From Vermamoeba vermiformis (Eukaryota), in NCBI GenBank assembly GCA_045837725.1, contig JBEWZL010000239.1, positions 372,001-436,000 on the forward strand: a stretch of DNA of 64,000 nucleotides. The letters are read 5' to 3'. The translations under genes and the position numbers were made by a program. Below are positions 7,234 through 53,939 of the stretch, piece by piece; position 1 is the stretch's first letter, and the number at the start of each line of letters is the position of its first letter. The notes under the pieces were generated by a model. That model made no database searches and was not told where the DNA came from. It saw only the letters and a program-made list of their open reading frames with translations.

Positions 7234-8394
7234 TTAAACAATGCAAAAGGTGATCACATCCTTTGGTGTTAATTGAACCACATCGTACTCGTCTTCAATG
7301 CTCACTTCAGCTGTCTTCAGACTTGCAATACTGTCGACGGAAATATTCCAAGCCGCTGCAATGTGCTTCACTAGCACGTGCCACGGCCCTGTCAGATCAT
7401 TTTTATCGAACACAACTTTGACTACCTTGACAGTTTTGTCATTAAGGCAACAAAATTTATGCACACGTGACTTGAGCGAGAGATCGAGGGTCATATAAAC
7501 AGTGTGGCCGAGGTTCTTCAAGTCGTGTTCGCCGTTGTACCCCACTTTCCAGCCATTTTCACAAAGCGCAATCCTCGCAGGAGAGTTATACACAAGCTTA
7601 ACATAATAAGACCGTGGGGGCATGGCTGCAGTTGATTGCCATTGGACAGTTCGAAATGACTCGACCGATTTATCTGTCGCTGAAGTGATGCTGAAGGTGC
7701 CATCGAAGAGAATTTCGTTATCATTATAAAAAAAAATATTCCTGTCTTCACAAATGATCTAGATTATACAATATTTAATATAAGACTTGACGAAGTAACG
7801 GGTTTTTCATACCTTGACGAATTCTTTGATCGGTTTCAGATCAGCATCCAAATTCTTCTTGTTGCCTTTATTGACCAACGGAATATCAATAACAATATTT
7901 CGACCCGAGTAATGGTACTTGAGTTGAATGAATTGACTTTCGTGTCCCTGTCCTCGAAGTTTCAAAACTAATTGCAGAGTGGATTCTGATTTGGAATTTG
8001 GTCAGTCGATCTGCTGCGCTGAAGCCGTACCTCTTTGTATATTATAATCGTCCAACGTTCTTTGGTCTTCAAGTTGCCTGCCCGCCCAGATAAGGCGTTG
8101 TTGGTCTACCGGTATGCCTTCTTTATCGTAGATCTGCAGTAAATTATTCGTAAATCGTTTCATTTGTACTGTCCTTTATATTATGACAATACCTTCATTT
8201 TAACGCGTATAATGGTGTCATCCGGTTCTACTTCAAGATTAAAAACCTTTGCTGTGAGAGTCTGCCGAAATTGTCGTATTAATTATAAAATTAATTTACT
8301 TATTATAAAAAGTGGTGGTATTACGCGAACGAATATCTGCTGTAGTAAATAAGAGTTAGTAATTGACAAGTTGTGCGAGACCGAAATTTACCAT
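7234..8394 (-). CDS. Ubiquitin-like domain + unnamed conserved domain + beta-grasp-like C-terminal domain (family copy 1, no kinase)
   Basis: Exons: ATG (8392-8394), QIFVR (8325-8339), [76 protein letters not shown]...EFVK (7813-7985), and 7234-7758. All introns are GT-AG and in frame. Confidence 0.88.
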
Positions 8395-8735
8395 GGCAAC
8401 AACTTGAACTTCAAATTGCCTCTGTGGCGATTCTATGGAAAATAAAATGCGTAAGTGAAGTTGGCCCGACAAAAAGCACAAAGGGGCCAGAGCTTGAATT
8501 TCCAGGAAGTAGTCGTAGGTCTAAGCAATTCTTTTTGTTGTGATCTTACCAGCGATCCGAAACGGAACGTGATACGTGATGAAGCGTAGCTTATTTACAT
8601 GTGTTATTAGTTTGTGACCTGTGCAAGTTGGTCCTGGATAGAGTTTCGGTCACGTGATTTTTGAGCTCGGATCCTGAGTGCCAACTATGTAGTGTTGAAA
8701 CCGATCTTAGGGCCGTCCTAACGATAATGCACTTA

Positions 8736-10898
8736 TTAAGAGCCCTGAGTTGAATCTGGCTCATCAGACGAATCATCTTCGAACTTGAACACAATGGTGT
8801 ATTGCTTGCTCAGCTTGTCCAGCATGTGCTTCAACTCGGCAATGCACTCGTCAATGCTCGGTCGTTGTGACGGCTCTGTCTTGCAGCACTTGACGATCAG
8901 TTTCTGAAGTGGTTTGTCCGTCACTGCTGACTTGATCTTCATTGACCGAGCAGTCTGAAAGAATATCATCGGCAGTGGTGTCATTGTGACCATTTGATAT
9001 AATACAGCACCGAACCTAAGATTGATGTGTAAGTCAGATTTCGGATCTGATCTGACACGTGTCAAAGCTTGACTTACGAATACACATCTGACTTCTCATC
9101 GTATGGTAGCCCTTGCACTAGCTCAGGTGCCATGAAGCCAATGGTGTCCAGATCGACCTTTGCTTTGGAACTCCTCGTCAAGAATCTTGGTGTGCTGAAG
9201 TCTGTCAGCTTGGCACGTACCTTGTTGTTGTAGAGCTTTGGTGAAAATGTCAGTTTTTACAGTCCATCGTGCCGAGTGATTATAACAGTATTGCATACGT
9301 ACCAAAACGTTCGAGCACTTGAGATTACGATGGATTATGTGGTGCGAGTGAAGGAACTTCAAACCTTTGACAACATCTAGTGCTATTCTGACAATGCGTG
9401 CTTTGCTTAGCTCTACTTTGTCACGCATCAGGAGGTCCTCTAGCGATCCGTTCTTGATGTATTCCATCACTAACATTGACTCGTCCGAGTTCGGATCCGT
9501 CGTGACACGTGTCAACGATGCAATGTGCTTGTACCGTAAGTGTCTATACTAGCAGTGAGTATGAAGTATGTATAGGGGTAAGCGAGTATTATATCATTTA
9601 CCTCAAGTTCTTGAGCTCTGAAATAATGTCATTGACCTTAACGTCCACGTACTTGAACCTCTTCACAGCGACCTTTTCGTCATTCCATTCAGCCAAGTAA
9701 GTGATGCCCGAGCTTCCTTTGCCAATCTCGTCAATGATCTTGATGTCTTCAAATGGTACAAGATACGAGTCTATTGATATTGTAAGTTGTAGCTCCTAAA
9801 GTGGGTTCAAAACTTACTCTGATCGAACAGTCGAAACGTGACAAGATCGTTTGGTTTGAGTTGCATCACGTCAAACTTATCTTCTATAATGACCTCTCCT
9901 GTCATAATCAATTCGATATCGCTAACGGCGATGCCCCAAGTAGCCGCGATGTTTCTTTGGAGCTCGTGCATCAGGTCCTCTTCGTACAGACTCAGCACAA
10001 CTGACCGTGTCACATTGTCACTCAGACAACAGACGCGTTGAACACGTGACTTCAATGAGAGATCTAGCTCGAATGGCTGTATTGAGAAGTGTCTGAAAGC
10101 GTCGGCTAGTGAGTGCTCGCCGTTGTATCCTATCTTCCAACCACTCCAGAACAAATTGGGATTTTTTTCGATGACAAATCCAAACTTTCCGTGGCGCAAC
10201 GGTACATCGGCATACCATCGGACCCCGCGTATTGGTTCGTTATTAGGACCCTTGGTATTGATCAAAGTGAATGTTCCTGGCACTTGAAACTAATGACAGG
10301 TGTCAATCCAGATCCGAAAAAATAAAAATCATACCTTGACGCAGGCTTTAATCGCATCCAAATCAGCTTCTAGATTCTTTGCGTTGGTAAGATTGGACAG
10401 TGGAATATCAATGAAGGCATTGCGGCCTGGTCCGTGAAAACGTAATTGCATAAATTGAAATTCGTGGCCCTGTCCACGAAGTCTCAGAACCAAATGAATG
10501 ATAGAGCCTAAGATATATGAGTGCGTTGTTCGTTTAATGAGCGTCCTCCTTACCTTCTTTTATTTCATACGAAGCTAAAAGTCGTCCGTCCTCAAGCTGT
10601 CTGCCTTCGAAAATCAATCGCTGCTGGTCCTTAACAATGCCATTTACTTCTTTAATCTATTAATTAATATTAAATAATTGCATGGCTATGAAAGCACTTG
10701 TACCTTTTTTTTGAGCATTTGGACAGTGTTATACGGATGTACTTGGAGCGTTCGTTTAATGCCGGTCATTTCCTTAAGGACATTAGCCTCTATAGTTGGT
10801 TATGATCGTATGCTCCTTACATGAATACAAATCTAAATAATGCAGGTTAAAATTCAAATCAAGCAGGATCTCTCGTAAATAAGATTTCGTACCTCCAT
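8736..10898 (-). CDS. Ubiquitin-like + unnamed domain + beta-grasp-like + TKL-type pseudokinase (family copy 2)
   Basis: Spliced N-terminus [77 protein letters not shown]. Shared core motifs IDIPL, GYNGE and DLSLKSRV. Kinase has [25 protein letters not shown] and SDVYSFG. Confidence 0.88.
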
Positions 10899-11289
10899 AC
10901 TGCTTAAATCTACTTCCGTGTATGTTATCGTTGCGTATTCTGGTATTAAATCGAAGGTTGTGTGATCTGACAACACATTTTCTTTGTACACCAAGGAAGG
11001 CGCTAAATGCAACAGTTAAGCTTATAACATAATTCTCGTAATTTTTAAAATTATTTTATTAAATTATTACCTTCGATTAAAGTGCATCCAGTGCCAAAGA
11101 AATTTTGTTTTGCTTGAAGAACGGTTGTTGTTGGTGTGACCGTTATAGGCGAGAACCAAGAGCCTTTTGCGATGTAAATTGTTTTTTCCATGCCGTCGTG
11201 TTGCTCCTGTTACGTCAAACTGTACAAGAGATCCGGTTTCATTTTTTGCAACTTCCCTCACCCATGTAATAAACGTCCGTTTGCTTTTA

Positions 11290-13829
11290 TTATCCAACCA
11301 ACAAGATACACGAAGCAATAGTTATTGCAACAAACCAAAATGCAGCATGGGAGGCAGTGCTGGTAACAGATCCGTCAGGTGAGCGAGAGGAAGGGTTTGC
11401 AGGTGTTTCGGGATTAGAAATGGCAAGTTGATTGCCGTCCCAAGTGCCTATTGTTTCGCCGATATTGAACGACCACGTGTTATCAAGATGATTAAGCTGC
11501 GGTTCATTTCCCGTGCAGTCAGGATCCAACAACACAACAAATGTGACTGAAGTGAGATTGGTGTTGATTTTGAACTGTCCATGTGCTTGATTAGGCAAGT
11601 TGACTGGAACAGCGAACTGATCTGTTTGAGTGAAGGTGTAGTCAGACGACGTGTACAGCATCTTGATGCACAACGATGCATTGCCATCACTTGACTTGAC
11701 AGTCGATGGTGAGACAACAGTGAAGTTTTTGAATGCATGCAAGTTCCATTCGAAGCCACGAGGAGAGTTGGCATCAAATTGGTCGAAGATCACAAACTGA
11801 TTGCTAGCGCGGAAGTAAACAATGGAGCGAATGGCGCGTGTTAACTGAAGCGCTGGGTTTGTTACACCGTAGTTGTATGCGACCAAAGCATCTCCAGTGA
11901 CGAAATCAAACTCGTTTGAGTGGCCGAATTGCGTGATGTTGCCTGTCGCCGAGATCTGATTGATCGTTTGCCCTACGCCTCCGTCCATTGTCACGCCACC
12001 ACTCTTAGATCGCGTGGTCTTCGTCCAGCCGTAGTGATGCGCAGATCCATAGTAATCGTAGTAACCGCTGTTGATGAGTAACGCTTTGCCTTTGTGTGCA
12101 AATGTGAAGCACAGCTGATCCGCGTAGTTGTGATTGTATGAGCCGAATCTGCCTGAGCGGAAGAACAGCGACGTGCGTTGATTGTCGGCGAGAGAGCTGT
12201 GGAATGACGCCCAGCCAATCGGTGCCAAGTGGATGGCATTGGGGTAGTTGCCTGTCAGCGGTTGAGGCGAGTTGAACTCGCGACTCCAAATAACATCGTT
12301 GTAGCGTGAGTCGACAAAGCCTTTGTAAGTGAGGGCATTACAGTACCAGTTATAAAGATCCTGATACTCCATGGTCGGAGATTCATCAAGAAGTGGACTA
12401 ACAACGTTGAGACAGACCATAGGTTGATATCCTCGCATATCTTGCTGCCCACTGTCACCAAAGCCAAGACCGCCTGATGCTGCGCCTGGAGGGGAGAAGT
12501 AGATGAATTGCAAGGGCCACTCGCGCACCCACTGCTTCTGATACAGACTCACGCCAGTGCTCCACTTCAAGAAGTTGAAGCGAGACGGAGCACTTGTCAC
12601 GTCAAAGTAGTTGTAGCCCATGCCATTGCCGAAGCCTCCTTCGTGCTCACCCCAGGTGCTGTACATGTTTAAGAACATCGGAATACTTGCTGCCCATGCG
12701 TCCGCTTCAGGAATCAGTCCTAGCATTGCCGCGCTAGCACTGGCGATGAAGCCAAGAGTGTTGGCACCATGAGAGTCGAACGGTGCTGTCATTAATTGAG
12801 TGAAGACACCTCCGTTCTCGTACACCTGTTCGGTTCTGTTCTTGATGTTTGCCAAGATTCTATTGCGATCAGTTACGGTGAAGTTGTTGTAGATCAAATC
12901 AAGAGTTTGAGCCAGCGATAGTAAGATGGCTCTGTTAGCTTGATCTTGCGAGGCATTGCTTGTAGCTCCTGCTGGATCCGCGTCCAAAAGTGCAAATGTT
13001 CTTCGCTTGAGCTCGTTGACGTAGATTGCGTTTGAAGAGTTGTACCAAAGAGCGTAGATGCAGTTTGAAATGTAAAGGACTTGCGGACTCGTGAAGTCAT
13101 TCATGACGCTTGATAGGTACGCGGCCCATTCAGGAGAGCCGGGAGGAAAGTCACTGGCAGTCTTGTTCGGTGCAACAGGAAGTGTTTCTCCGAGCCGTCT
13201 GTTCAGGTACGGAATTACTACTGTATTCAATTGCTTGACGAATGATTGACCAGCAGATGAAGCCAAGAAAGCTGTCTTCGCATCGCCCTTCATCAACAGT
13301 CGTGGATGATCGGAGTTTTTTGCCGTTGTGATAACGTCAGTTGGCACGATAAATGTAGTGGCATCGGATGCGACCAAGAACGAGCGCACATCACTGTCAT
13401 TTGACGTGCCCTTGACAGAGTCCATCAAAGTCACTCTCCAAAAGTAGGTCGTGTCCACGGGTAAGGCAAGCGGCACGTTGTAAAAGCAGTTCGTCGTGGT
13501 GTAACTCCAGTCAGGTTGACGATCAGCGGTTGAGTTGGCCCAGATCGACAATTTAAACGATTTGCCGTTGCCAAGAAATCCTTGAGCAGTCCACCAAAAT
13601 GAGGGCGGATTAGATTTAATAATTGCATCATCTGGCGGAACGATCCGAACGTAAAGCAAGTCATGATTCGTTAAAAAATCTAACAATTGACGTTAGAAAG
13701 GGAAAATAATTATTGATGAATAGAGGCGCAAACATTTCATTAATTGTTTGCATTAAGTTAAATACCTCCATGAACAAAATTCGATGCGATGGCCAGCAGG
13801 ATGGCAATAAAACACAACGACAGTTTCAT
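11290..13829 (-). CDS. Secreted, probably GPI-anchored heparinase II/III-like (DUF4962-type) polysaccharide lyase
   Basis: Exon 1 encodes a signal peptide (MKLSLCFIAILLAIASNFVHG). One intron (13680-13765) precedes a ~2.4-kb exon. Motifs HPRLL, FDSHG, WGEHEGGFGNGMGY, GFGDSG, GSYNHNYADQ and LLINSGYYDYYGSAHHYGW. Ser/Pro linker and hydrophobic C-terminal tail. Confidence 0.8.
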
Positions 13830-14148: not shown

Positions 14149-14414
14149 TGGTATTCGCATCTGTTTGCCAATTAAACCAAGTTTTTTGTGCATCCGTACG
14201 CGTGCTGATAATTTCTTTGCGGGATTGCTTTTTCTGTTTCCTATCTCTGTAATACTAAGTGCTACTACGATTTCTAATGTCTTCGCAGGTCATTGCCAAA
14301 TAAGGAAAGAGGCGTTGTTGCCCACATCACACATCCAGCATTTGTGTTTTGTTCTTTCTATAATAGCTTATGCTGTTTAATATACTTCTGTAAGTTGTCT
14401 AATGGTCTATCGAC
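14149..14414. repeat. Direct repeat copy B (266 bp, diverged), matching 16764-17029
   Basis: Shared blocks include tggtattcgcatctgtt, ctaagtgctactacgat, cattgccaaataaggaaagagg and atatacttctgtaagttgtctaat. Confidence 0.92.
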
Positions 14415-16608
14415 GTAGTTAGAATAGTTATTCTTCATATTCTTTAGTATTGTAACGCATTGATGGCCGGTTGGTCGGTTAGTCGGATCTGTTCTGCAGC
14501 ACGCGACAATGAACTTCTGAAGCGGTAGGTCGTCAATCTTGGATTTAATTTTTGTTACGCGATCTTCTTCAGCGAATATAATAGGCAATGTACTAGCCGT
14601 TATCATCTGGTACACAAGTGCGCCAAACCTACAGCAAGCTTATAATTAGAATCTGGAGTGACACGTGTCAAGCGAGACGTACGAATACACGTCGGCCTTC
14701 TCGCTGTAAGGAATGTTTTGCAGCATCTCGGGTGCCATGAAACCGAGAGTGCCTATGACTTTGGTACCGCGAGATTCGCTTTGGCACTGTGCGTCAAAAA
14801 TCTCGCGGTACCAAAGTCAGATAACTTGGCACGCTTGTTATTGCCATAAAGCTAAAACAACATGTTAGAAAGATCTTCGTATAATCATTACTCGTCCTTA
14901 CTAAGACATTAGCACTCTTCAAATCTCGATGAATGATCTTTCGTTGGTGTAGGTAACGCAGTCCTTTAGCCACGTCCAGTGCAATTCTAATAACTTCAGA
15001 TTTTGACAGTGACGCCCTCCCACGCGGTACTTGTCCTAATAGTTCTTCAAGAGAACCGTTTTGCATGTCTCCATCACTAACATAGTCTCTTTTGAGTTCG
15101 GATCCGTCGTGACACCGACAAATGATACGATGTGCTTGTGTTGCAAACGGCTGTAATGTAACATTAGACTTATTTACGAGTTAAAAACAATAAGGTACTA
15201 ACACTAACGCCTTTGCCTCGGTGAGTACTTGTTCGTTGTTGATGGCCGACTTGAACTTTTTGATGGCGACCTTTTGACCGCACCAGTCGGCCAGATAAAT
15301 GACGCCGAAGTTTCCTTCGCCGATGATTTCTATTAACTTGAGCTCTTCAAATGAAATCTGCAGTACGACTGCAAAAAGAATTAATCTAGCGTCGCATGAG
15401 TGTCACAAAACGGATGGCCTTACCTGGCTCCACAATTCCAAAAGTGGTCAATTCATCCGATCTTAGCCGCATAACATCGTATTTATCCTCTACCTTGCTA
15501 CCACTGGTCATAATTGACACAATGTTATCGATTGGTACGTCCCATGTCGCCGCTATGTTCCTCATAAGCACGTGCCACGGATCACTGTTCTCTTCTCCTT
15601 CAAAGTGTAATGCCACTGGTCTCGTAGTGTTGTCGTTGAGACATCGAACTTGGTGCACACGTGATTTGAGCGAGAGGTCGGCGTCAAGGGCTAGTGAGTT
15701 TCGAAGCAAAAACACGTCCGTAATGGCGTACTCGCCGTTGTAGCCGACGCACCAATTGTTTCTGTGTAATTGAGTCGCTGCAAGACAGTTCAGGAATATT
15801 ACTGTATAGTGCCCAGGGCGCAGTGGACGATTTGATTGCCACCGAACAAATTGACGAGTCTTTGGAGCGTTGCTAACTATGGTGTATGTGCCGATTATAG
15901 GCAAGTGATCGTGAGATCTAACGACCTAAATGATGCTCGTGAATTAGTTTAGTTTGATTTTCACTGAGCGAATTCGGCGAGAAATTTTACCCTTACAAAT
16001 TCGTTGATGAAAATCAGATCCGCTTCCAACATCTCGTGCGAGTCATTTACTAATGGAATATCGATATAAGCATCGCGTCCTGGTCCTTTGTATTGCAGTT
16101 CAATGAATTGGCATTTGTAGCTTCGCTCGAAGACGTAATACGAAGGATTTTTCGCTCTTCGCTTTTCACAAGCATCTTTAAGGTCTTGATAAGTTGCAAC
16201 TAATTGACGCGAATAAGATTCAGAGATTTTGACCAGTTGAGTAGGCAAGATCTATTTTAGTAAGTAATCAGATTGATCAAAAATTCTTTCTCATTTTCTT
16301 ACGTACGTTCTTAATATTCAAGAAGCCCTTGTAGTCTGGTTTCTTGACGTGTATGCACGATACAGTAGCATATGGAGGTACGACTAGTTGCTCGGTATCG
16401 TCTAATTTTTTTTCTTTGTAAATCCACTGACAATCTGAATTTTTGTTAGTTTTACTAACGTCTCTAATATAGTACGTGACACCTTACTCTTTGTATTAAG
16501 ACTGTGGTCGAATAGGACTTGTTTAGCGCGACCGACTGTTTTGATGGACGGATGCACCCTTACAGCTACCACATCTGCACCTAGAGCCAGGTAAAAAGTC
16601 TTTTCCAT
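14358..16608 (-). pseudogene. Divergent UBL + unnamed domain + beta-grasp-like + TKL kinase with two frameshifts (family copy 3)
   Basis: Same core motifs ([29 protein letters not shown]) and kinase introns at positions equivalent to copy 2. Kinase has GEGNFG, VAIK, HRDLKSAN, DFG and MAPE, but there is a 1-nt deletion at 15068/15069 and a ~14-nt insertion near 14763-14776. Confidence 0.75.
14756..14819. repeat. Perfect 21-bp inverted repeat with 22-nt spacer inside the copy 3 kinase activation segment
   Basis: tgactttggtaccgcgagatt (14756-14776) is the exact reverse complement of aatctcgcggtaccaaagtca (14799-14819). Confidence 0.95.
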
Positions 16609-27324: not shown

Positions 27325-30300
27325 TTAGTCGCTGTCCTCATCGTCAACAACTCTTTTGGCTCCGCGCCCTCGTTTGGGAGCTGCTTTCTTTGGAGCGGGC
27401 TTTGGTGTTGGCTTGGATCGGGTAGGACGACCTTTACGAGCTGGCTTAGAATCCTCTTCTTCGTCGCTCTTCTTATCTTCAGCATCATTGTCGTCTTCTT
27501 CGATGGTCATAGCCTTCGAGTTGGATTTGGATCCGGTACGCGATCGCTGTTTGGAGTCCTCGACCTCCATTTCGTCGTCTGAGGAAAGCGCCTTCGCCTT
27601 CTTTCCCTTAGCTGTAGCTTTAGCAGGGGCTTTCTTCTTTGTGGGCTTGTTCTCTTCGTCTTCATCAAGATCGAGCAGCTCAACCTCTTCGTCTTTGTTC
27701 TCAGGCTCTGATTTTTCAGCTTCATCTTCATCCTCGCTTTCTACGACGCGCTTAGAAGCTTTGCCTTTAGCAGTGCTCTTCGTATCCGCTTTCTTTTTTG
27801 GTCGATCTTCTTCGTCAGAGGCCTCGTCCTCGCTTTCAGCCTTCTTGCTCTTGGAGGCAGGCTTCTTCTTGGGCTTATCGTCGTCTTCATCCTCATCGTC
27901 TCCAGAACCACTCTTCTCGTCGTCATTGTCACTCTCAACAACAGCCTTGTTAGACTTGCCAGATCCGCGTGTCGGACGTGCTTTGGGCTGCACCTCTTCT
28001 TCACCACTTTCATCATCGCTCGATTTTGCCACGTCTTCTTCACTAGCCTCGTCTTCTGACTCTTGCTTCTTTCCGCGGCCTTTAGGAGGTGCCTTAGCCT
28101 TGGCAGGTGCAGGTTTTGCTCGCTGCGAACCTGCGCGACCGCGTGTCGGTCGAGCGCTTGGCTTTTCATCAATTTCCTTATCGTCCTCGTCTTCTACGAC
28201 ACGCTTCTTGCCGCCACGAGCCTTGGAAACTTGTTTAGGCTCAGCCTCTTCGCCGTCTTTTTCTTTGTTTTCTTCTTTTTCGGCCTTGTCGTCTTCTTCG
28301 ACACTAAACAAATCAACGTCGCTGTCGTGTGATCCGCTGTCTTCGTCATCGCTCTCGACCTTCTTCTTAGCGACCTGTTTCTTGCCTTTAGGAGCTGTCT
28401 TGGCAATTTCTTTAGCAGCCTTGGCCTTGTCAATGACCGTGTTGTTTTCTTTGTGGCTGTCAAAGCACGCGTTGACTTTGTTCTCTAGCTCGTCAACAAC
28501 AGCTTTAAGCTCGGGCTTAGCGAACTTGCGTGCCTTGGCAACAATAGCCATGAACGAGTTGTAGACATCCTCGCTGGCAATCGCCTCTTTGTAGAACTTG
28601 AACGACTCTGAAAGTTTCTTGACAGACTTCTCAGTGTAGTTAAGCAGACTGAGACAATAAGCAATATCTTGCCATTGCTTGATATCGATCGTTGTCGGGA
28701 ATCTATGGCATAGCTTCTCAACCAAACTTTCGACTTGACGATCCTTCTCAATGAACGAGAACAAGTACTTCATGATGTTTCTAAACGAGTCCATAGTCAG
28801 CACGCCAGAAGCTGATAGACCACTGATAGTCTCAGGCAGAATGTTGTACAGTTGGTTGCCCTTGCAAGATAATTCGTGGAAGAACAAACGTGCCAGATCC
28901 GCAATACGTTGTTCAGAGTCTTCGAGACAGATAGCCATCTCGCTGACTTGGCCTTTCACTTTAATCATGTCGTTGAGAATCAAGTGCGTGAGGACCATCA
29001 TTGTGTTCTTGCGGACTCGTGCGTCTTTGTCACGCAAGCGAGTGTACATGTGGTTGGTCCAAGGATCAAGCAAGTTCGGGAAACGAACGGCCAAGTCACC
29101 CAACACAATGACAATGTTGGCCTTCAATCGTGGGTCCATGTCGTGCGTTAAGATAGTGAACAGTAGCTTAAGATTCTTTTCGCAAAAATCGGGACTGACC
29201 AACATGTACTTGCAAAGTGCGAGCAGTGCTGCGGAGCGCAACAGATCGTTGGTGTAGTGACCGTGCTCGTTGGTGGCAACCTTGACGACGATAGTGGCAA
29301 ATTGGCCCAAGAGGTTACTGGGTTCGACAAGTGACTTTTGAATGCTTAGTAACTCAGCTTCGGCTTCAGCATCAGCCATGTTGCCCACGTGACCAAGTTC
29401 CTTTTCAATGTCCTCTTCTTCGCTGTCTTCATCGTCTTCTCCGTCTTTCTTTTTCTTGCCCTTGCCAACACTCTTACGCTTCTGAGAGGCCTTGTGTTTC
29501 TTCTCCGCTTCTCTTCTCGCCTGGCTCTTCTTCGTCTTGTCGTGTTCGAAGCGTTGTCGTTGAATTTCTCGATGAATTTCCTCGATTAAGACAAGCTGTC
29601 TCAAAGCACAATGGCCAACAACGAACAAAAGGCGCGTCAAAGGGTCATACGCTGAGTCTTGATCTGGTTCTTCCTTGACCTCCATTTCGTCGTTCTTCTT
29701 GCCACTCTCAAAATCGACTTCACCAGCCATGTGACAAATGATGGCTTCCATCAAGGTGTCTGGTTTCTCCGAGACCATGTAGATCGTGTTGATCGCCTGT
29801 TCGGCGGCAGGGAACCATTGTTCTAAAGGAATCTGAGGACTGATAACCAAGTCTCGGAGCTTGTCAAACACTTCGTGGTTGGACTTGAATCGCTCGTGGT
29901 GATGTTTGTTCTCTTGCTCTTTGTTTGCTTCCTCCGTGGTCTCTTTCTCGCCCTTCTTCTTTGGGCTAGAGTTATCGCGCACCCTTCGCTTTGACAACTT
30001 TTGCAAAGCGACACAAGCCCATTTGCCCAAGTGAGGATCTACGTGAGCACGTGGTCCGAGACCAATGTTCACAAGCATGTTCAGCTTATTACCGATGATG
30101 TTGGGGTCGGCATTGGCAAGCATACTGAGCACGATCAATGCACCGCGTCCTTCGGCATTATTTTCCTTATCCTTTTGAGCTGTAACGACAATTAGCTTCA
30201 GCTATGCAACTAAATAAAATCTCGTTCTAACGTACCAAAAATATCCCAAAGAACTTCAACAATGCCATAAGACACGTGCTTGTCCTTCATGAGAAGGAAC

Positions 30301-50123: not shown

Positions 50124-53100
50124 CTATTTGCCGGCCCTAGATCTCGGCTTAAAGGTACGACGGCCACTGATATCGTTCGAAGTAGAGCTGCCTCCACCAC
50201 CGCCACCAAACAGGCCAGTATCAAAGATACTACCGCCACCGCTGGAGGGTTGTTCAGATCGAGAAGAGCTTGAGGTTGTAGCGAAGGGATTAGCTGCCGC
50301 GGAAGAGGGTTGGCTCGCGCCACCAAATCCACCGAATCCGCTTGTGCTCGGCGTGGTGCTGAAGGAAGGCTGCGAAGAACCACCACCGAATCCCGATGAG
50401 AACGATGGAGCACCGCCTGTTCCAAAGCCAGACGAGGTTGAGGTTGAGCTACCAAACGGTGCAGAAGTCGACGCGGAAGGTTGACCAAATCCACCTCCGA
50501 AACCAGATGCGGACGGTGTGGGTTGAGCAGGAGTCGAGGGGAACCCAGGGAAGGATGGAGTGGAAGTGCTTGAAGTAGTAGTCGATGAACCACCAAAGGG
50601 GAATCCACTGGTAGTTGAGCTCGAAGGTTGATTCGAACCAAAAGCTGGTCCCGAGCTAGATGTGGAAGGAGTCGTTGTGAAACCACCAAAGGCAGGGGTA
50701 GATGAAGGTGCTGTAGTTTGAGGACCGAATCCACCGAAAGCAGGTGTGGAGGAAGTTGAAGTAGAAGGGGTAGGTTGTGAAGGGAAACCGAAAGCCGGAG
50801 TTGAAGTGGATGTGCTCGTGCTCGTGCTAGGTGTAGGGTTGAAACCAGTAAAGCCTGACGTCGCTGAGGTCGAGGGTGCCGATGGTTGAGATGTCGATGA
50901 TGGGTTAAAGCCAAAACCTGAGCTTCCAGTTGTTGCCGAAGTGCTCGACTGACCAAACGGAGCGGATGTGCTTGGTGCGGTTGAAGGTGTTGTGCCAAAG
51001 GCAAATGGAGCTGCGCTTCCTGTACCAGAAGTGGTTGAGGTCGTAGAAGAGCCAGTGGGATTGAATCCACCGAAAGCAGGTGTGGAGCTTGCGGGAGTGG
51101 AGCTGCTGGATGTCGCAGGAGTACCAAATCCAAAGCCACCAGTAGTTGTCGTGGATGTTGAAGGTTGGGTGGTAGAGGGTGCAGTTGGGTTGAAATTAAA
51201 CATGCTACCAGCCGCAGGAGTGCTCGAGCTGGTTGTTGAAGAGCTCGTCCCAGAATTGGCGCCAAAAGCAAATCCGACCGTTGTGGGGGTGGAAGTAGTA
51301 CTTGCTGGCTTATCGGTGGCAACAGTAGTCATAGCACTAGTGAACAACGTGCTTCCAGTGTGCGATAAAGCGGGGCGGGTAGCAGTTGTGGTTGCAGAGG
51401 TAGTAGAAGCTGGTTGGCTGGTGCTCGGGGCTCCAAAAGTAAAAGTGCTGCCACCGGTAGAAGCAGCAGGTGTGCTAGTTGAGGGAGCGCTCGTGGAGGC
51501 TGTCGGGTTGAAGTTGAACATACCCGTGGTTGATGGGGCAGTCGTAGATGAGGTGCTTGGTTGTGACGCAGTCGTGGCAGGTGTGGTGGTAGAGGCTGTT
51601 GCGGTGACAGCAGGGAAGTTCATCGTAAAACCGCCAGTCGTGCTAGCAGCAGGCGTCGTGGTGGAAGTCGTGCTAGAAGCTGTGCTCGTAGTAGAAGGAG
51701 TTGGATTAAAGGCAAAGGATGGAGTTGTGGTGGCGGTGGAAGTTGTGGATGCAGGAGTTGTAGTTGTGGTTGTGGAAGTAGTTGTGCTAGTAGAGGGCGT
51801 GCTATTGAAATTGAAGCTCGTTGTTGATGGAGCTGTGGTAGAAGTCGTGCTAGCCTGTGACGAGGAGCTCGTTGAAGTGCCTGCGGTTGGTGTGAATGAG
51901 AAGGATGGCGTAGTCGTCGAAGCCGTGCTTGAAGTAGCAGCGGGCGTTGTTGTGCTAGTTGTTGATGGCTGAGACGAGCTTGTTGTGGGTACGTTGAAGG
52001 AAACAGAAGGAGTGCTCGAAGAAGTTGTTGAAGAGCCGGTAGTGGTCGCAGTAGCAGCGGCAGTCGTCGCGCTCATGGCAAGATCGAACAACGGCTTTTG
52101 AGACTTCTTGTCGTCCTTCTTCTCAGCATCGGCCTTTTCTTTAGCAGCAGAATTGAGCAAGAATTGAGCACGTTTGTCTTCCTCATCGTCGGCGAGCGAG
52201 TTCCACTTTTGACGGCTGGGAGTTTGGTTAAGAACAGAGGGTTTAGCGGTAGAATTGAACAAGACTCGACGTCGTTTTGGTGTTGACTCGACAGGAGTCA
52301 TTGGGGATTGAGGTTCGATGTTAATTCGAGGCAAAGCAGCAACTCCAATACTTCGAGAAGACGCTGCAATATCGTGAATCGTGAGTGGCTTTGGTGGACT
52401 TGCTTGCTTGGAAGTGGGCACGGAGAGGGTTGGAGGAGGCTTGAAGATATCTTCGGTGTTGTCAAGAGCTGGAAGTGAGTAATCCGATTGGTTATCATCC
52501 ATTCCGTTTGTATCGGGCTCCGAAACAAGATCAGGGACTGAGGACTTTAAGTCCATGGGAGAAATTTGCTCCACTGGTGGTTCCTCAGTCGCATCCTGTT
52601 CGACCATATGCTCGTCATCCGGATAAAAGTTTCGCTTTTTGGGTTGCTCTACTGACGCTTGCAAGCTGCGAGAAGAGCGAGGAGTTTGAGGAGCCCTTTT
52701 GCTTCTTTTTTTGGCAGGAACGTCTCCGTTAACACTGCTATCTTCGGGAATATCCTTCTTCTTCCTCTTCTTTGAAACGGTAAGCTTAGGTCGCTTTTCG
52801 ATGGTGCCGGGTGAGTCCAAAACATTTTCGTCAAAACCAAGCGCGACAGCGGCTTTGCGTTTAGGCACTCGCGGTTGATTCAAAAACTCTGAGTGTGTGG
52901 AAGCGACGCGTTGTTTCTTCGGTGAGGTACCACGAGCAGATTCAGTTTCATCATCACGTGTAGATCTCTTGCGTCCTCGGCGTGTTTCCGAGAACTCCAT
53001 TTCTTGCATAAAATCCTCATGTGAAGCCATCGGTGCGCTGGGATATGAGTCCTCAACATTGCCCAAACTAGCGACAGGTTGCATTTTAACGCTCATTACA

Positions 53101-53939
53101 TCGCCTTGAGGTTGAGTGACAAAAGTGTCAAGCGATCGACCACTGGGGGTTGGTGCAATGCTGATTGGGCCTAAAAAAAATATTAATATCATCTCATATA
53201 ATAACATTATAACATACTCTTTAAGCCCTTTTGGCTAAAAGTTCGCTGACGCAAGCTATTTGATCCATTGGCATCCAAAAATGAGTTAATGCTGACTGAT
53301 GGTGCTGACGGAGTAGTGTCTTCGTACGCATTGTAGTTTGAGTTATAAAAGCTATTGACTTGGCCAGCACGCGGTGATAAAAAGTTCAGTCTTTGGGGTT
53401 GCAACGGTGACGCGAATGGATTCGATGCGTTGTTGGTCGCGGTTGTTGCTTGTGATTGCTCTGGTGGTTGTGCAATTTGATTTAAGCGAATGGGAGGTAA
53501 ATTGGCTGTCACTAAACGCAGATCGTGAATTAGATCGAATCAAAAAAAAAAATTGTGCACTTACCATCGATCGGTAAATTACGCTTTAAATTCTTTGGTC
53601 TATTTCTGTTGACTTTGGCATTATTTATTGTAATATTTTTGTTGATCCTAAAAAACACGAAGCGATCAGATCACGATCCAAGCAGTCCAACAAAAGTATT
53701 GAAAATTAATTGATAGTTAAAACTAAAAATATTTGCACTACATAAATGGAGGGTTTTGGGACGATTTAGCAAAGAAAAGAAGAAGAAAGCATATCCGAAT
53801 CCGATTTCACGACTTTTTCTGACTTCCAAGAAAAATATCGGGAACAGGGTGCTACTTACGTGACCGAAGGGGAAATATACTTTGTATAAATGAACCATAA
53901 TATTGCTGCCACAAGAAATAATGAAATCCAAAACAACAT
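50124..53939 (-). CDS. FG-repeat nucleoporin, POM121/Nup153/Nup1-like, with predicted N-terminal transmembrane helix
   Basis: Ser/Thr-rich FxF/FG repeats (SFNF, AFGGF, GFGF), basic NLS-like clusters, and basic C-terminus GRRTFKPRSRAGK. Upstream exons 53860-53939, 53565-53647 and ~53218-53511 splice in phase. The true start may lie further upstream. Confidence 0.8.

What the first reader, a model, noticed from the sequence alone, without database searches (positions are those of the whole stretch)
7948..8394. Near-canonical ubiquitin domain carrying K6R, K48R, K63R and G76Q
Seen: spliced sequence [77 protein letters not shown] has 19 differences from ubiquitin. Three are K-to-R at chain-forming lysines 6, 48 and 63, the di-Gly becomes GQ, and the L8/I44/V70 patch is intact. 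Copy 2 also has K48R and LRGQG (plus K63E, K6H, K11I). Established: G76 is needed for DUB cleavage and conjugation, and uncleavable N-terminal ubiquitin fusions are UFD-pathway substrates via K29/K48. Inference: a natural chain-resistant, uncleavable ubiquitin mimic that can still bind ubiquitin receptors or DUBs. K11, K27, K29 and K33 remain.
Basis: partly seen in the sequence, partly recalled or inferred. Interest (0 to 1): 0.8.

Follow-up and report, generated by a model that had tools for sequence, protein, structure and literature searches.

The report
Hard-wired ubiquitin domain protein family
A small eukaryotic gene family encodes proteins carrying an almost perfect copy of ubiquitin that has lost its cutting site and its main chain-building lysine, so the ubiquitin probably stays attached for good as a built-in signal.

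Summary
On the minus strand, six exons (8394 to 7234) encode a 295-aa protein. Its first 76 residues differ from human ubiquitin at 19 positions, including K6R, K48R, K63R and G76Q, and then run on in frame (LRGQG-HE...). Spliced contigs from a close relative confirm all five coding introns.

It belongs to an undescribed family: [degenerate UBL-a] - near-canonical UBL-b - about 125 aa with no known family - a third beta-grasp domain (AlphaFold2 pLDDT 85) - optional TKL kinase. The window holds three tandem copies: gene 1; gene 2 with a kinase carrying HRN/DFS; and copy 3 with a decayed UBL-b and a frameshifted kinase. A distant relative, P0013, is only about 31% identical outside the UBL but has the same layout.

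R48 and Q76-G77 occur in 3 of 3 UBL-b sequences. They are the only substitutions, measured against human ubiquitin, that are identical in all three. K6 (R/K/R) and K63 (R/E/K) vary, and lysine loss overall is no more than chance (P 0.30 to 0.50).

Best reading: an integral, non-removable ubiquitin-derived domain that lacks K48. "Chain-resistant" is overstated, and binding was not tested. It is a new variant of a known kind, of moderate interest.

The parts
8550..8649 (-). Gene 1, upstream non-coding exon (5' limit not determined). It is open in frame but holds no ATG before the UBL's M1, and a stop lies at 8650-8652.
   Evidence: X1 joint 8432/8550 skipping 117 nt with GT..AG ends. Frame read.
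8392..8432 (-). Gene 1, exon carrying the end of the 5'UTR and the start codon (ATG 8394-8392). Only M1 is coded here.
   Evidence: The loose end of an X1 contig reads UTR-ATG-exon 2.
8325..8339 (-). Gene 1, 15-nt exon coding residues 2-6 (ends with R6).
   Evidence: The X1 loose end at 8262 holds this exon, with a synonymous CGC>CGG change at R6 in the relative.
8193..8261 (-). Gene 1, exon coding ubiquitin positions 7-29 (L8, K11, K27, K29).
   Evidence: X1 joint 8133/8193 with 70 letters on this side. Weak PF00240 match, E 0.043.
8031..8133 (-). Gene 1, exon coding positions 30-63 and the first base of codon 64 (I44, R48, R63).
   Evidence: PF00240 at E 4.7e-12. X1 joints 7985/8031 and 8133/8193.
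7948..7985 (-). Gene 1, end of the ubiquitin-like domain (positions 64-76: Q68, V70, K72, R74, G75, Q76).
7813..7947 (-). Gene 1, G77 and the conserved junction (GHE...) running straight into the middle region, which matches no known family.
   Evidence: (no Pfam hit). The junction motif is also present in gene 2 and P0013.
7504..7758 (-). Gene 1, rest of the middle region (beta-rich, no family match).
   Evidence: No Pfam hit. No PDB sequence match. The full-length AlphaFold2 model of the relative was too poor to use here.
7234..7503 (-). Gene 1, C-terminal beta-grasp domain (UBL-c) plus the stop codon (7236-7234).
   Evidence: Aligned to P0018. AlphaFold2 model of P0018 with 14 sequences: pLDDT 85. 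Foldseek hits ISG15, SUMO, NEDD8 and Ub. In the VIA wide search all 50 rows shown are ubiquitin-like/beta-grasp-type domains by their entry titles, Z 7.4-9.1.
8736..11191 (-). Gene 2 (636 aa model): degenerate UBL-a (11191-10893), UBL-b (10787-10470, ending LRGQG), middle region plus UBL-c (10469-9818), and a TKL-type kinase domain (9770-8736) with HRN and DFS in place of HRD and DFG.
   Evidence: PF07714/PF00069. PF00240 on exon 10656-10555. X1 shows 4 of the 9 introns: 11003-11070, 9771-9817, 9236-9302 and 9014-9075. The other 5 are model only.
14358..16608 (-). Copy 3: degenerate UBL-a, a short decayed segment where UBL-b should be (no LRGQG), middle region plus UBL-c, and a kinase with canonical HRD/DFG but two apparent frameshifts in this assembly.
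   Evidence: X1 joints 16251/16307 and 14626/14681.

Best explanation
The feature is the ubiquitin-derived domain (UBL-b) of a small, undescribed eukaryotic protein family. The family layout is:
- a degenerate UBL-a, missing in gene 1;
- a near-canonical UBL-b;
- about 125 residues of beta-rich sequence with no known family;
- a third beta-grasp domain (UBL-c);
- in some members, a TKL-type kinase or pseudokinase.

Shown here:
- UBL-b is translated as an integral part of the polypeptide.
- The Gly-Gly site has become Gly-Gln-Gly and runs without a linker into a conserved HE... junction.
- Arg replaces Lys48.
- Both changes are shared by every known member that has a UBL-b.
- The I44 hydrophobic patch is kept.

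Inferred: because deubiquitinases and the conjugation machinery need G75-G76, the domain is neither cut off nor conjugated. Because K48 is gone, it cannot seed K48-linked chains. The protein therefore carries a permanent, mono-ubiquitin-like surface in cis. That surface would recruit ubiquitin-binding partners to the attached module or dock back on it to regulate it, without being a strong K48 degradation signal.

Gene 1 is a tandem duplicate of gene 2 that lost UBL-a and the kinase and gained a new first exon ending in ATG. That exon sits at the intron position shared with gene 2.
For: - Anatomy and splicing.
- Homology to ubiquitin: PF00240 at E 4.7e-12 on one exon and 2.7e-26 on P0013 with two matched stretches.
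- Identity to a natural ubiquitin (L001): 55/76 for gene 1, 51/76 for P0013 and 38/76 for gene 2.
- Family: a profile of the three window copies, searched against 1.84 billion representatives, gave 10 hits at E <= 0.001, of which 9 are fragments and one is a 1638-aa repeat protein at 7e-08. Cluster look-up of one hit yielded P0013 and P0015, full-length mRNA-sized records with UBL-a, UBL-b, the same junction and the same C-terminal part.
- R48 and Q76-G77 are present in 3 of 3 UBL-b sequences.
- Eight positions differ from the L001 ubiquitin in all three sequences. Three of those carry the same residue in all three: 19, 48 and 76. Position 19 is L001's own variant, because human ubiquitin also has P19. 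So against human ubiquitin only 48 and 76 remain.
- UBL-b is more conserved than the rest between gene 1 and P0013: 60% versus 31% identity.
- Between the window and its close relative X1, the five listed differences in exon 5 all fall in the post-UBL part. By my codon reading they are four non-synonymous and one synonymous. The one difference I could read in the UBL is synonymous.
- G76 mutants are DUB-resistant and make stable fusions (passages of PMC9703124). UFD targeting uses K29 and K48 (passages of PMC2173284).
- UBL-c has a beta-grasp fold.
Against: - Only three UBL-b sequences exist, and two are paralogues. Shared R48 and Q76 may be a single ancestral event passively retained.
- The number of lysines replaced is not above chance in any sequence (P 0.30, 0.50, 0.42).
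- K6 and K63 vary. K27 is kept in 3 of 3, and K11, K29 and K33 in 2 of 3 each.
- In HeLa cells K48R alone did not stabilise Ub(G76V)-GFP, and K29 was the more effective site. Genes 1 and 2 keep K29.
- Gene 2's UBL-b has drifted to 50% identity with L8M, as fast as the rest of the protein (45% versus 45% against gene 1).
- Copy 3 has lost a recognisable UBL-b. A ubiquitin-like surface is therefore not indispensable to every member.
- Q at position 76 has not itself been tested for DUB resistance.
- There are no data on expression, cleavage or binding for this organism.
Confidence: 0.5

Rival explanations
1. Neutral relic. A polyubiquitin-derived pair of repeats was captured at the 5' end of an ancestral gene. 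G76Q was needed only to keep the fusion in one piece. R48 is a conservative change fixed once and inherited. The domain has no ubiquitin-specific role beyond perhaps helping folding or solubility, and it is decaying at different speeds in different copies.
For: - Lysine loss is no more than chance.
- K6 and K63 vary.
- Gene 2's UBL-b is only 38/76 identical to ubiquitin and evolves as fast as the rest of the protein.
- Copy 3 has no recognisable UBL-b, and UBL-a is degenerate everywhere.
Against: - Gene 1 and P0013 keep 72% and 67% identity to ubiquitin, while the rest of the two proteins has fallen to 31%.
- I44 and V70 are kept in 3 of 3.
- In the close relative, the listed changes avoid the UBL.
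- K-to-R exchange is easy, yet no member has gone back to K48.
Confidence: 0.25
2. Intramolecular regulator. UBL-b, with UBL-a and UBL-c, packs against the protein's own middle region or kinase to control conformation or activity. This would resemble the ubiquitin-like domains next to kinase domains, or the UBL of parkin (comparison recalled from memory). It would not recruit outside ubiquitin receptors.
For: - There is no linker. The LRGQG tail runs directly into a conserved HE... junction in 3 of 3 members.
- Three beta-grasp domains sit in one chain.
- Some members carry a kinase immediately after UBL-c.
Against: - Gene 1 and P0013 have no kinase.
- A purely internal docking role would not obviously require a near-canonical ubiquitin surface.
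- The full-length model was too poor to show any packing.
Confidence: 0.18
3. Cleavable precursor. An unusual protease cuts at or near LRG-QG and releases either a free ubiquitin-like modifier or the downstream domains, as happens with natural ubiquitin-ribosomal protein fusions.
For: Natural ubiquitin genes do encode fusions that are processed (passage of PMC9703124). R72/K72, L73, R74 and G75 are kept.
Against: - G76 is Q in 3 of 3.
- G76 substitutions give DUB-resistant fusions.
- The residues after the junction are conserved as if they belong to the next folded unit.
- In the tandem forms there is no GG between UBL-a and UBL-b either.
Confidence: 0.04
4. Not a working gene: a mis-spliced model or a pseudogene.
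For: The first coding exon is only ATG and the second is 15 nt. Copy 3 nearby has frameshifts.
Against: - A relative's spliced contig carries exactly these exons with an open frame.
- All introns are GT..AG, and the 295-codon frame is intact.
Confidence: 0.03

Closest known systems
Ubiquitin itself (Pfam PF00240)
   Same: Same fold family. Gene 1 matches human ubiquitin at 57 of 76 positions. L8/I44/V70, R42, R74, G75, S65 and four of the seven lysines are kept.
   Different: There is no free C-terminal Gly-Gly. Position 76 is Gln and the chain continues for 219 more residues. K48 is Arg, and K6 and K63 are also Arg in gene 1.
Integral UBL-domain proteins (ubiquitin-domain proteins such as Rad23, Dsk2, parkin)
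   Same: A ubiquitin-fold domain built into a larger protein, lacking the diglycine and not conjugated. This definition comes from a passage of PMC2447854.
   Different: Those UBLs are, from memory, only about 20-35% identical to ubiquitin. This one is 72-75% identical and keeps most recognition surfaces. The partner domains here have no known family.
Engineered non-cleavable ubiquitin fusions (Ub-G76V-X, Ub-K48R fusions) and the disease mutant UBB+1
   Same: A ubiquitin fused to a C-terminal extension with G76 replaced, so it cannot be removed. Experimenters use K48R to stop chain extension on fused mono-ubiquitin (passages of PMC9703124, and PMC2173284).
   Different: This one is natural and conserved in a family. 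It has Gln rather than Val or Tyr at position 76. It keeps K29 in the window copies. In the usual family layout it is internal, sitting behind UBL-a, not at the N terminus.
ISG15 / FAT10 (tandem ubiquitin-like modifiers)
   Same: Two ubiquitin-like domains head to tail, as in gene 2 and P0013. The fold search for UBL-c returns ISG15 and FAT10 among the top matches.
   Different: ISG15 and FAT10 end in a free diglycine and are conjugated (recalled). Here the tandem is followed by further domains, and gene 1 has only one UBL before the junction.
Plant type II PI4K-gamma proteins (UBL domain(s) plus a kinase domain that acts as a protein kinase)
   Same: An N-terminal ubiquitin-like domain on a kinase-bearing protein. 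Passages of PMC3741686 describe it. That paper's reference list cites Galvao et al. 2008, which I did not read.
   Different: The kinase family differs (PI3/4K fold versus TKL protein kinase). There is no middle region or third beta-grasp domain. Those proteins are not related to this family by any search run here.

Membership tests
Ubiquitin family domain (PF00240) | Significant match to the family profile | tested here: met
   The exon at 8133-8032 scores E 4.7e-12, 45.9 bits against a cut-off of 25.4. P0013 scores E 2.7e-26.
Ubiquitin proper (conjugatable modifier) | C-terminal Gly75-Gly76 exposed by processing | tested here: not met
   Position 76 is Gln, and the frame continues in gene 1, gene 2 and P0013.
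Ubiquitin proper (conjugatable modifier) | All seven lysines, including K48, conserved | tested here: not met
   Gene 1 has R6, R48 and R63. R48 is present in 3 of 3 family UBL-b sequences.
Integral UBL-domain proteins (UDPs) | Ubiquitin-fold domain embedded in a larger polypeptide without a diglycine | tested here: met
   The 295-aa open frame has the UBL at residues 1-76. A relative's spliced contig spans the UBL and the junction.
Integral UBL-domain proteins (UDPs) | Not cleaved and not conjugated in the cell; binds proteasome or other ubiquitin receptors | not testable with these tools
   This needs biochemistry. No partner from this organism is available.
Ubiquitin-fusion-degradation (UFD) substrates | N-terminal non-removable ubiquitin with K29 and/or K48 as chain acceptor sites | tested here: inconclusive
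   Gene 1 is N-terminal, with K29 present and K48 absent. In gene 2 the UBL is internal, with K29 present and K48 absent. In P0013 it is internal and both lysines are absent. The criteria come from passages of PMC2173284.
Active TKL protein kinase (gene 2 only) | Kinase-domain profile match plus catalytic HRD Asp and DFG motif | tested here: not met
   PF07714 at E 8.8e-18, but the motifs read HRN and DFS. The G-loop, VAVK and APE are present.
ISG15/FAT10-type tandem UBL modifiers | Two UBLs ending in a free diglycine | tested here: not met
   The tandem is present in gene 2 and P0013, although the UBL-a match is weak (E 0.002 and 0.05 in a five-sequence search). There is no free diglycine.
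Beta-grasp (ubiquitin-like) fold, C-terminal domain UBL-c | beta-beta-alpha-beta-beta-(3-10)-beta topology with structural matches to solved ubiquitin-like domains | tested here: met
   The model has pLDDT 85 and pTM 0.76. Foldseek gives 3 hits at E <= 0.001, all ISG15 or SUMO. In VIA all 50 rows shown are ubiquitin-like/beta-grasp-type domains by their entry titles, Z 7.4-9.1 with 68-84 residues aligned. This is a fold-level result only.

The most novel reading that the evidence does not exclude
A conserved eukaryotic family uses a genetically hard-wired ubiquitin that is DUB-proof (G76Q) and cannot be extended at K48 (K48R). It would act as a permanent cis 'mono-ubiquitin' signal on a multi-beta-grasp scaffold, with or without a (pseudo)kinase. 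That would make it the natural counterpart of the Ub(K48R, G76V) fusions that experimenters build, and the family could plug signalling modules constitutively into ubiquitin-receptor networks without any E1-E2-E3 step.
Probability: 0.3. Interest if true: 0.7.

Novelty: new variant of a known kind. Interest (0 to 1): 0.5.

Why it matters
Integral ubiquitin-like domains are common, but they are usually distant from ubiquitin. Here a domain 67-75% identical to ubiquitin is kept in proteins whose other parts have diverged to about 31%. Measured against human ubiquitin, the only substitutions identical in all members are at the two positions experimenters mutate to make a stable, non-extendable ubiquitin fusion.

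If selection maintains this, it is a natural experiment. It would show which ubiquitin functions survive when the domain can be neither removed nor K48-extended. It would also give a handle on a family, including a third beta-grasp domain and an unknown middle region, that has no Pfam model, no solved structure and almost no database relatives.

If it is only inheritance by descent, it is an ordinary UBL-domain protein with a recent ubiquitin origin.

Tried and rejected
- **Own genome:** none is held.
- **Word-indexed protein searches:** exon 6 with lengths 'near', exon 6 with 'longer', and P0013 residues 150-364 all returned nothing. For one search the likely reason is that P0013's cluster representative is a 152-aa fragment outside the length window.
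- **Metagenome DNA scans:** A1 matched 597 pattern stretches but none was a relative. P0013 brought back only a polyubiquitin gene (L001) and an unrelated single UBL (L002).
- **RNA:** no RNA holder is listed for the window. The three raw-read RNA runs with the same species label laid 4, 1 and 0 reads, so they say nothing about expression. Splicing evidence comes only from contigs of X1. The tool only guesses that X1 is RNA, but its contigs lack the introns.
- **Full-length AlphaFold2 model of P0013:** 14 sequences, mean pLDDT 45.9. This was too poor for any fold search, so the middle region and domain packing remain unknown.
- **Mixed alignment of short exon fragments (A3):** misaligned and not used.
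- **Pfam:** nothing for the middle region or UBL-c, and nothing for the UBL-a exons of gene 2 or copy 3.
- **PDB sequence profile search:** nothing better than E 1.1.
- **ESM Atlas feature search of P0013 151-364:** only scores of 0.77-0.81, mostly ubiquitin or Rad60-SLD clusters. This was a lead only, later borne out for UBL-c by the fold prediction.
- **Literature:** 'LRGQG' plus 'ubiquitin' found 1 unrelated paper. 'kinome', 'TKL', 'ubiquitin-like domain' found 3 unrelated papers. 'ubiquitin-like', 'TKL', 'kinase', 'amoeba', 'domain fusion' found 6 unrelated papers. I found no description of this family in those searches. Subscription journals are not covered.
- **Complex prediction:** none run. 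No partner sequence from this organism was available, and the spliced proteins cannot be handed to that tool.
- **Organism:** not identified. It is a eukaryote with 45-117-nt GT..AG introns.
Full report
**1. The observation**

The window is eukaryotic DNA with short introns, and no whole genome is held for it. On the minus strand between 8394 and 7234 I read and joined by coordinate six coding exons: 8394-8392 (ATG only), 8339-8325, 8261-8193, 8133-8031, 7985-7813 and 7758-7234. The five introns are 52, 63, 59, 45 and 54 nt long, and all are GT..AG. The product is 295 aa.

Codon 76 ends at 7948. Measured against human ubiquitin as printed, it differs at 19 positions. These include K6R, K48R, K63R and G76Q. 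L8, I44 and V70 are intact, and K11, K27, K29 and K33 are kept. H68 is Q and R72 is K. One 34-aa exon alone matches PF00240 at E 4.7e-12, so the homology is not chance.

**2. Splicing evidence**

The runs labelled with the same species gave almost no reads: 4, 1 and 0. Contigs of run X1, a relative 95-99% identical, are spliced. One 382-nt contig skips 7986-8030 and 8134-8192. It carries a 39-letter loose end that reads, on the minus strand, 5'UTR, ATG, the 15-nt exon and then exon 3. In it R6 is coded CGG instead of CGC.

A further joint places 7813 next to the relative's version of the start of exon 6, which is 31 letters where the window has 34. A 117-nt intron (8433-8549) lies in the 5'UTR. 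The frame upstream of M1 is open but has no ATG before a stop at 8650-8652. All five coding introns, and the ATG, therefore have outside support. The tool only guesses that X1 is RNA, but the intron-less contigs argue that it is.

**3. Surroundings**

tblastn of the gene's exons against the window found two more copies on the same strand.

Gene 2 spans 11191-8736. My model gives 636 aa in 10 exons. X1 shows 4 of its 9 introns. Its parts, in order:
- a degenerate first ubiquitin-like domain (UBL-a);
- a second domain (UBL-b) that ends LRGQG;
- the same downstream region as gene 1;
- a TKL-type kinase domain (PF07714 at E 8.8e-18).

The kinase's catalytic motifs read HRN and DFS rather than HRD and DFG. 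Gene 2's UBL-b has K48R, K63E, K11I, K33V and G76Q. That stretch has no read support.

Copy 3 spans 16608-14358. It has UBL-a and then a short decayed segment without LRGQG where UBL-b should be. The downstream region follows, and then a kinase with HRD/DFG but two apparent frameshifts.

Genes 1 and 2 share two UBL-b intron positions: after codon 29 and within codon 64. They also share the intron just before codon 2. Gene 1 therefore looks like a tandem duplicate that swapped the UBL-a exons for a new first exon ending in ATG, and that lost the kinase.

**4. The family outside the window**

A profile of the three downstream regions was searched against 1.84 billion representative proteins. It gave 10 hits at E <= 0.001:
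- 5 are fragments closely resembling the window's own copies (P0001, P0002, P0003, P0008, P0010);
- 4 are distant fragments (P0004, P0005, P0006, P0009);
- 1 is a 1638-aa repeat protein at E 7e-08, which I take to be unrelated.

Looking up P0005's cluster gave two records of 364 and 351 aa that the source calls 'ubiquitin' (P0013 and P0015). They lie on contigs of 1136 and 1096 nt, which is mRNA size. P0013 has UBL-a, a UBL-b ending LRGQG followed by HE, the middle region and the same C-terminal part. It has no kinase. Pfam sees PF00240 in two stretches and nothing else.

**5.

I compared the three UBL-b sequences with a natural ubiquitin from locus L001.

| | Gene 1 | Gene 2 | P0013 |
|---|---|---|---|
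| Identity to L001 ubiquitin | 55/76 | 38/76 | 51/76 |
| Position 6 | R | K | R |
| Position 11 | K | I | K |
| Position 27 | K | K | K |
| Position 29 | K | K | Q |
| Position 33 | K | V | K |
| Position 48 | R | R | R |
| Position 63 | R | E | K |
| Position 76 | Q | Q | Q |
| Position 8 | L | M | L |

In all three, position 76 is followed by G. I44 and V70 are kept in all three.

Eight positions differ from the L001 ubiquitin in all three sequences: 16, 19, 20, 24, 25, 28, 48 and 76. Positions 16 and 19 are L001's own variants. Positions 20, 24, 25 and 28 changed to different residues in each sequence. Only 48 and 76 changed to the same residue in all three.

The count of lysines lost is not unusual in any sequence (hypergeometric P 0.30, 0.50 and 0.42). 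So R48 and the GQG junction are family-wide, K6 and K63 are not, and there is no general purge of lysines.

**6. Rates of change**

| Pair | UBL-b identity | Rest of the protein |
|---|---|---|
| Gene 1 vs P0013 | 60% | 31% |
| Gene 1 vs gene 2 | 45% | 45% |
| Gene 2 vs P0013 | 44% | 30% |

Against the close relative X1, the five listed differences in exon 5 all fall after G77. By my codon reading they are four non-synonymous and one synonymous. The one change I could read within the UBL is synonymous.

UBL-b is therefore under stronger constraint than its neighbours in gene 1 and in P0013. That is not so in gene 2, and UBL-b is lost in copy 3.

**7. The other domains**

A full-length AlphaFold2 model of P0013 was poor (mean pLDDT 45.9), and I did not use it.

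The C-terminal 91 residues were modelled from P0018 with 14 aligned sequences. That model reached pLDDT 85 and pTM 0.76, with beta-beta-alpha-beta-beta-3(10)-beta order. Foldseek against the PDB gave 3 hits at E <= 0.001, all ISG15 or SUMO. A Foldseek-independent search listed 50 entries at Z 7.4-9.1, and by their entry titles all are ubiquitin-like/beta-grasp-type domains: UBL, PB1, CIDE-N, DCX and RBD. So the family ends, or precedes its kinase, with a third beta-grasp domain. This is a fold-level statement only.

The roughly 125 residues between UBL-b and UBL-c match no Pfam family and no solved structure by sequence.

**8. How it most likely works**

Shown:
- UBL-b is an integral domain.
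- The diglycine is destroyed.
- The tail runs without a linker into a conserved junction.
- K48 is Arg in every member that has the domain.
- The I44 patch is kept.

Established elsewhere, from passages I read: G76 mutants resist deubiquitinases and give stable fusions, and a fused ubiquitin can then signal as mono-ubiquitin or be extended (PMC9703124). UFD targeting uses K29 and K48 (PMC2173284).

Inferred: the protein carries a permanent ubiquitin surface that cannot be removed or K48-extended. That surface serves either to recruit ubiquitin-binding partners or to dock on the protein's own domains.

Points against a simple 'escape from UFD' story:
- K48R alone did not stabilise the reporter in that paper, and K29 was the stronger site.
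- Genes 1 and 2 keep K29; only P0013 has lost both.
- The domain is N-terminal only in gene 1.

I put 0.5 on the integral, selected, non-removable signal reading. The rivals get 0.25 (passive relic), 0.18 (purely internal regulatory role), 0.04 (cleavable precursor) and 0.03 (not a working gene).

**9. Comparison with what is known**

This is a member of the ubiquitin fold family, but it is not ubiquitin proper, because it has no free GG and no K48. It fits the definition of a ubiquitin-domain protein (passage of PMC2447854). It is far closer to ubiquitin than the classic examples, although that comparison is recalled rather than measured here.

It works like the engineered Ub(G76V) and Ub(K48R) fusions and like UBB+1. 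It shares the tandem-UBL idea with ISG15 and FAT10. It shares the UBL-plus-kinase idea with plant type II PI4K-gamma proteins (passages of PMC3741686). No search run here relates it to any of these.

Three literature searches found no description of the family. Those searches do not cover subscription journals.

**10. Verdict**

The finding is a new variant of a known kind: an integral UBL domain that is nearly ubiquitin. R48 and Q76 are fixed across a rare, undescribed multi-beta-grasp family. Interest is moderate (0.5). The conserved R48/Q76 pair is striking. It rests on three sequences, two of them paralogues, and nothing about cleavage, chains, binding or stability has been tested.

Noticed in passing
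window 8736-9770 (minus strand): The kinase domain of gene 2 has HRN instead of HRD and DFS instead of DFG. The G-loop, VAVK and APE are intact. It is probably a pseudokinase or an atypical kinase.
   Followed up: partly
window 14358-15402 (minus strand): Copy 3's kinase has canonical HRD/DFG, but two apparent one-base frameshifts break the frame, near 15080 and near 14770. This is either a pseudogene or assembly errors. A relative's contigs still show splicing at 14626/14681 and 16251/16307.
   Followed up: partly
window 11290-13692 (minus strand): An intron-free 800-aa frame sits between copy 3 and gene 2. It matches DUF4962 (E 7.8e-21) and Heparinase II/III-like C-terminal (E 2.2e-14), with a hydrophobic C-terminal tail. 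This is a bacterial-looking polysaccharide-lyase-type gene inside the tandem array.
   Followed up: partly
window 8433-8549 (minus strand): A 117-nt GT..AG intron lies in the 5'UTR of gene 1, only about 190 nt downstream of gene 2's stop codon. A relative's contig also runs through gene 2's stop to 8632. The two genes are very tightly packed and could share read-through transcripts.
   Followed up: no
P0004 (217 aa): A distant family fragment carries an Asn-rich stretch and a predicted coiled coil after UBL-c, where gene 2 has a kinase (weak CLZ match at E 6e-4). The family seems to swap its C-terminal module.
   Followed up: no
window 50124-53234 and 27325-30201 (minus strand): The neighbouring long frames look like ordinary housekeeping genes. 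Going only by their translations, they include a Ser/Thr/FG-rich nucleoporin-like protein, a condensin-like HEAT protein, an ATR-like kinase and an XRN1-like exonuclease. None was searched.
   Followed up: no
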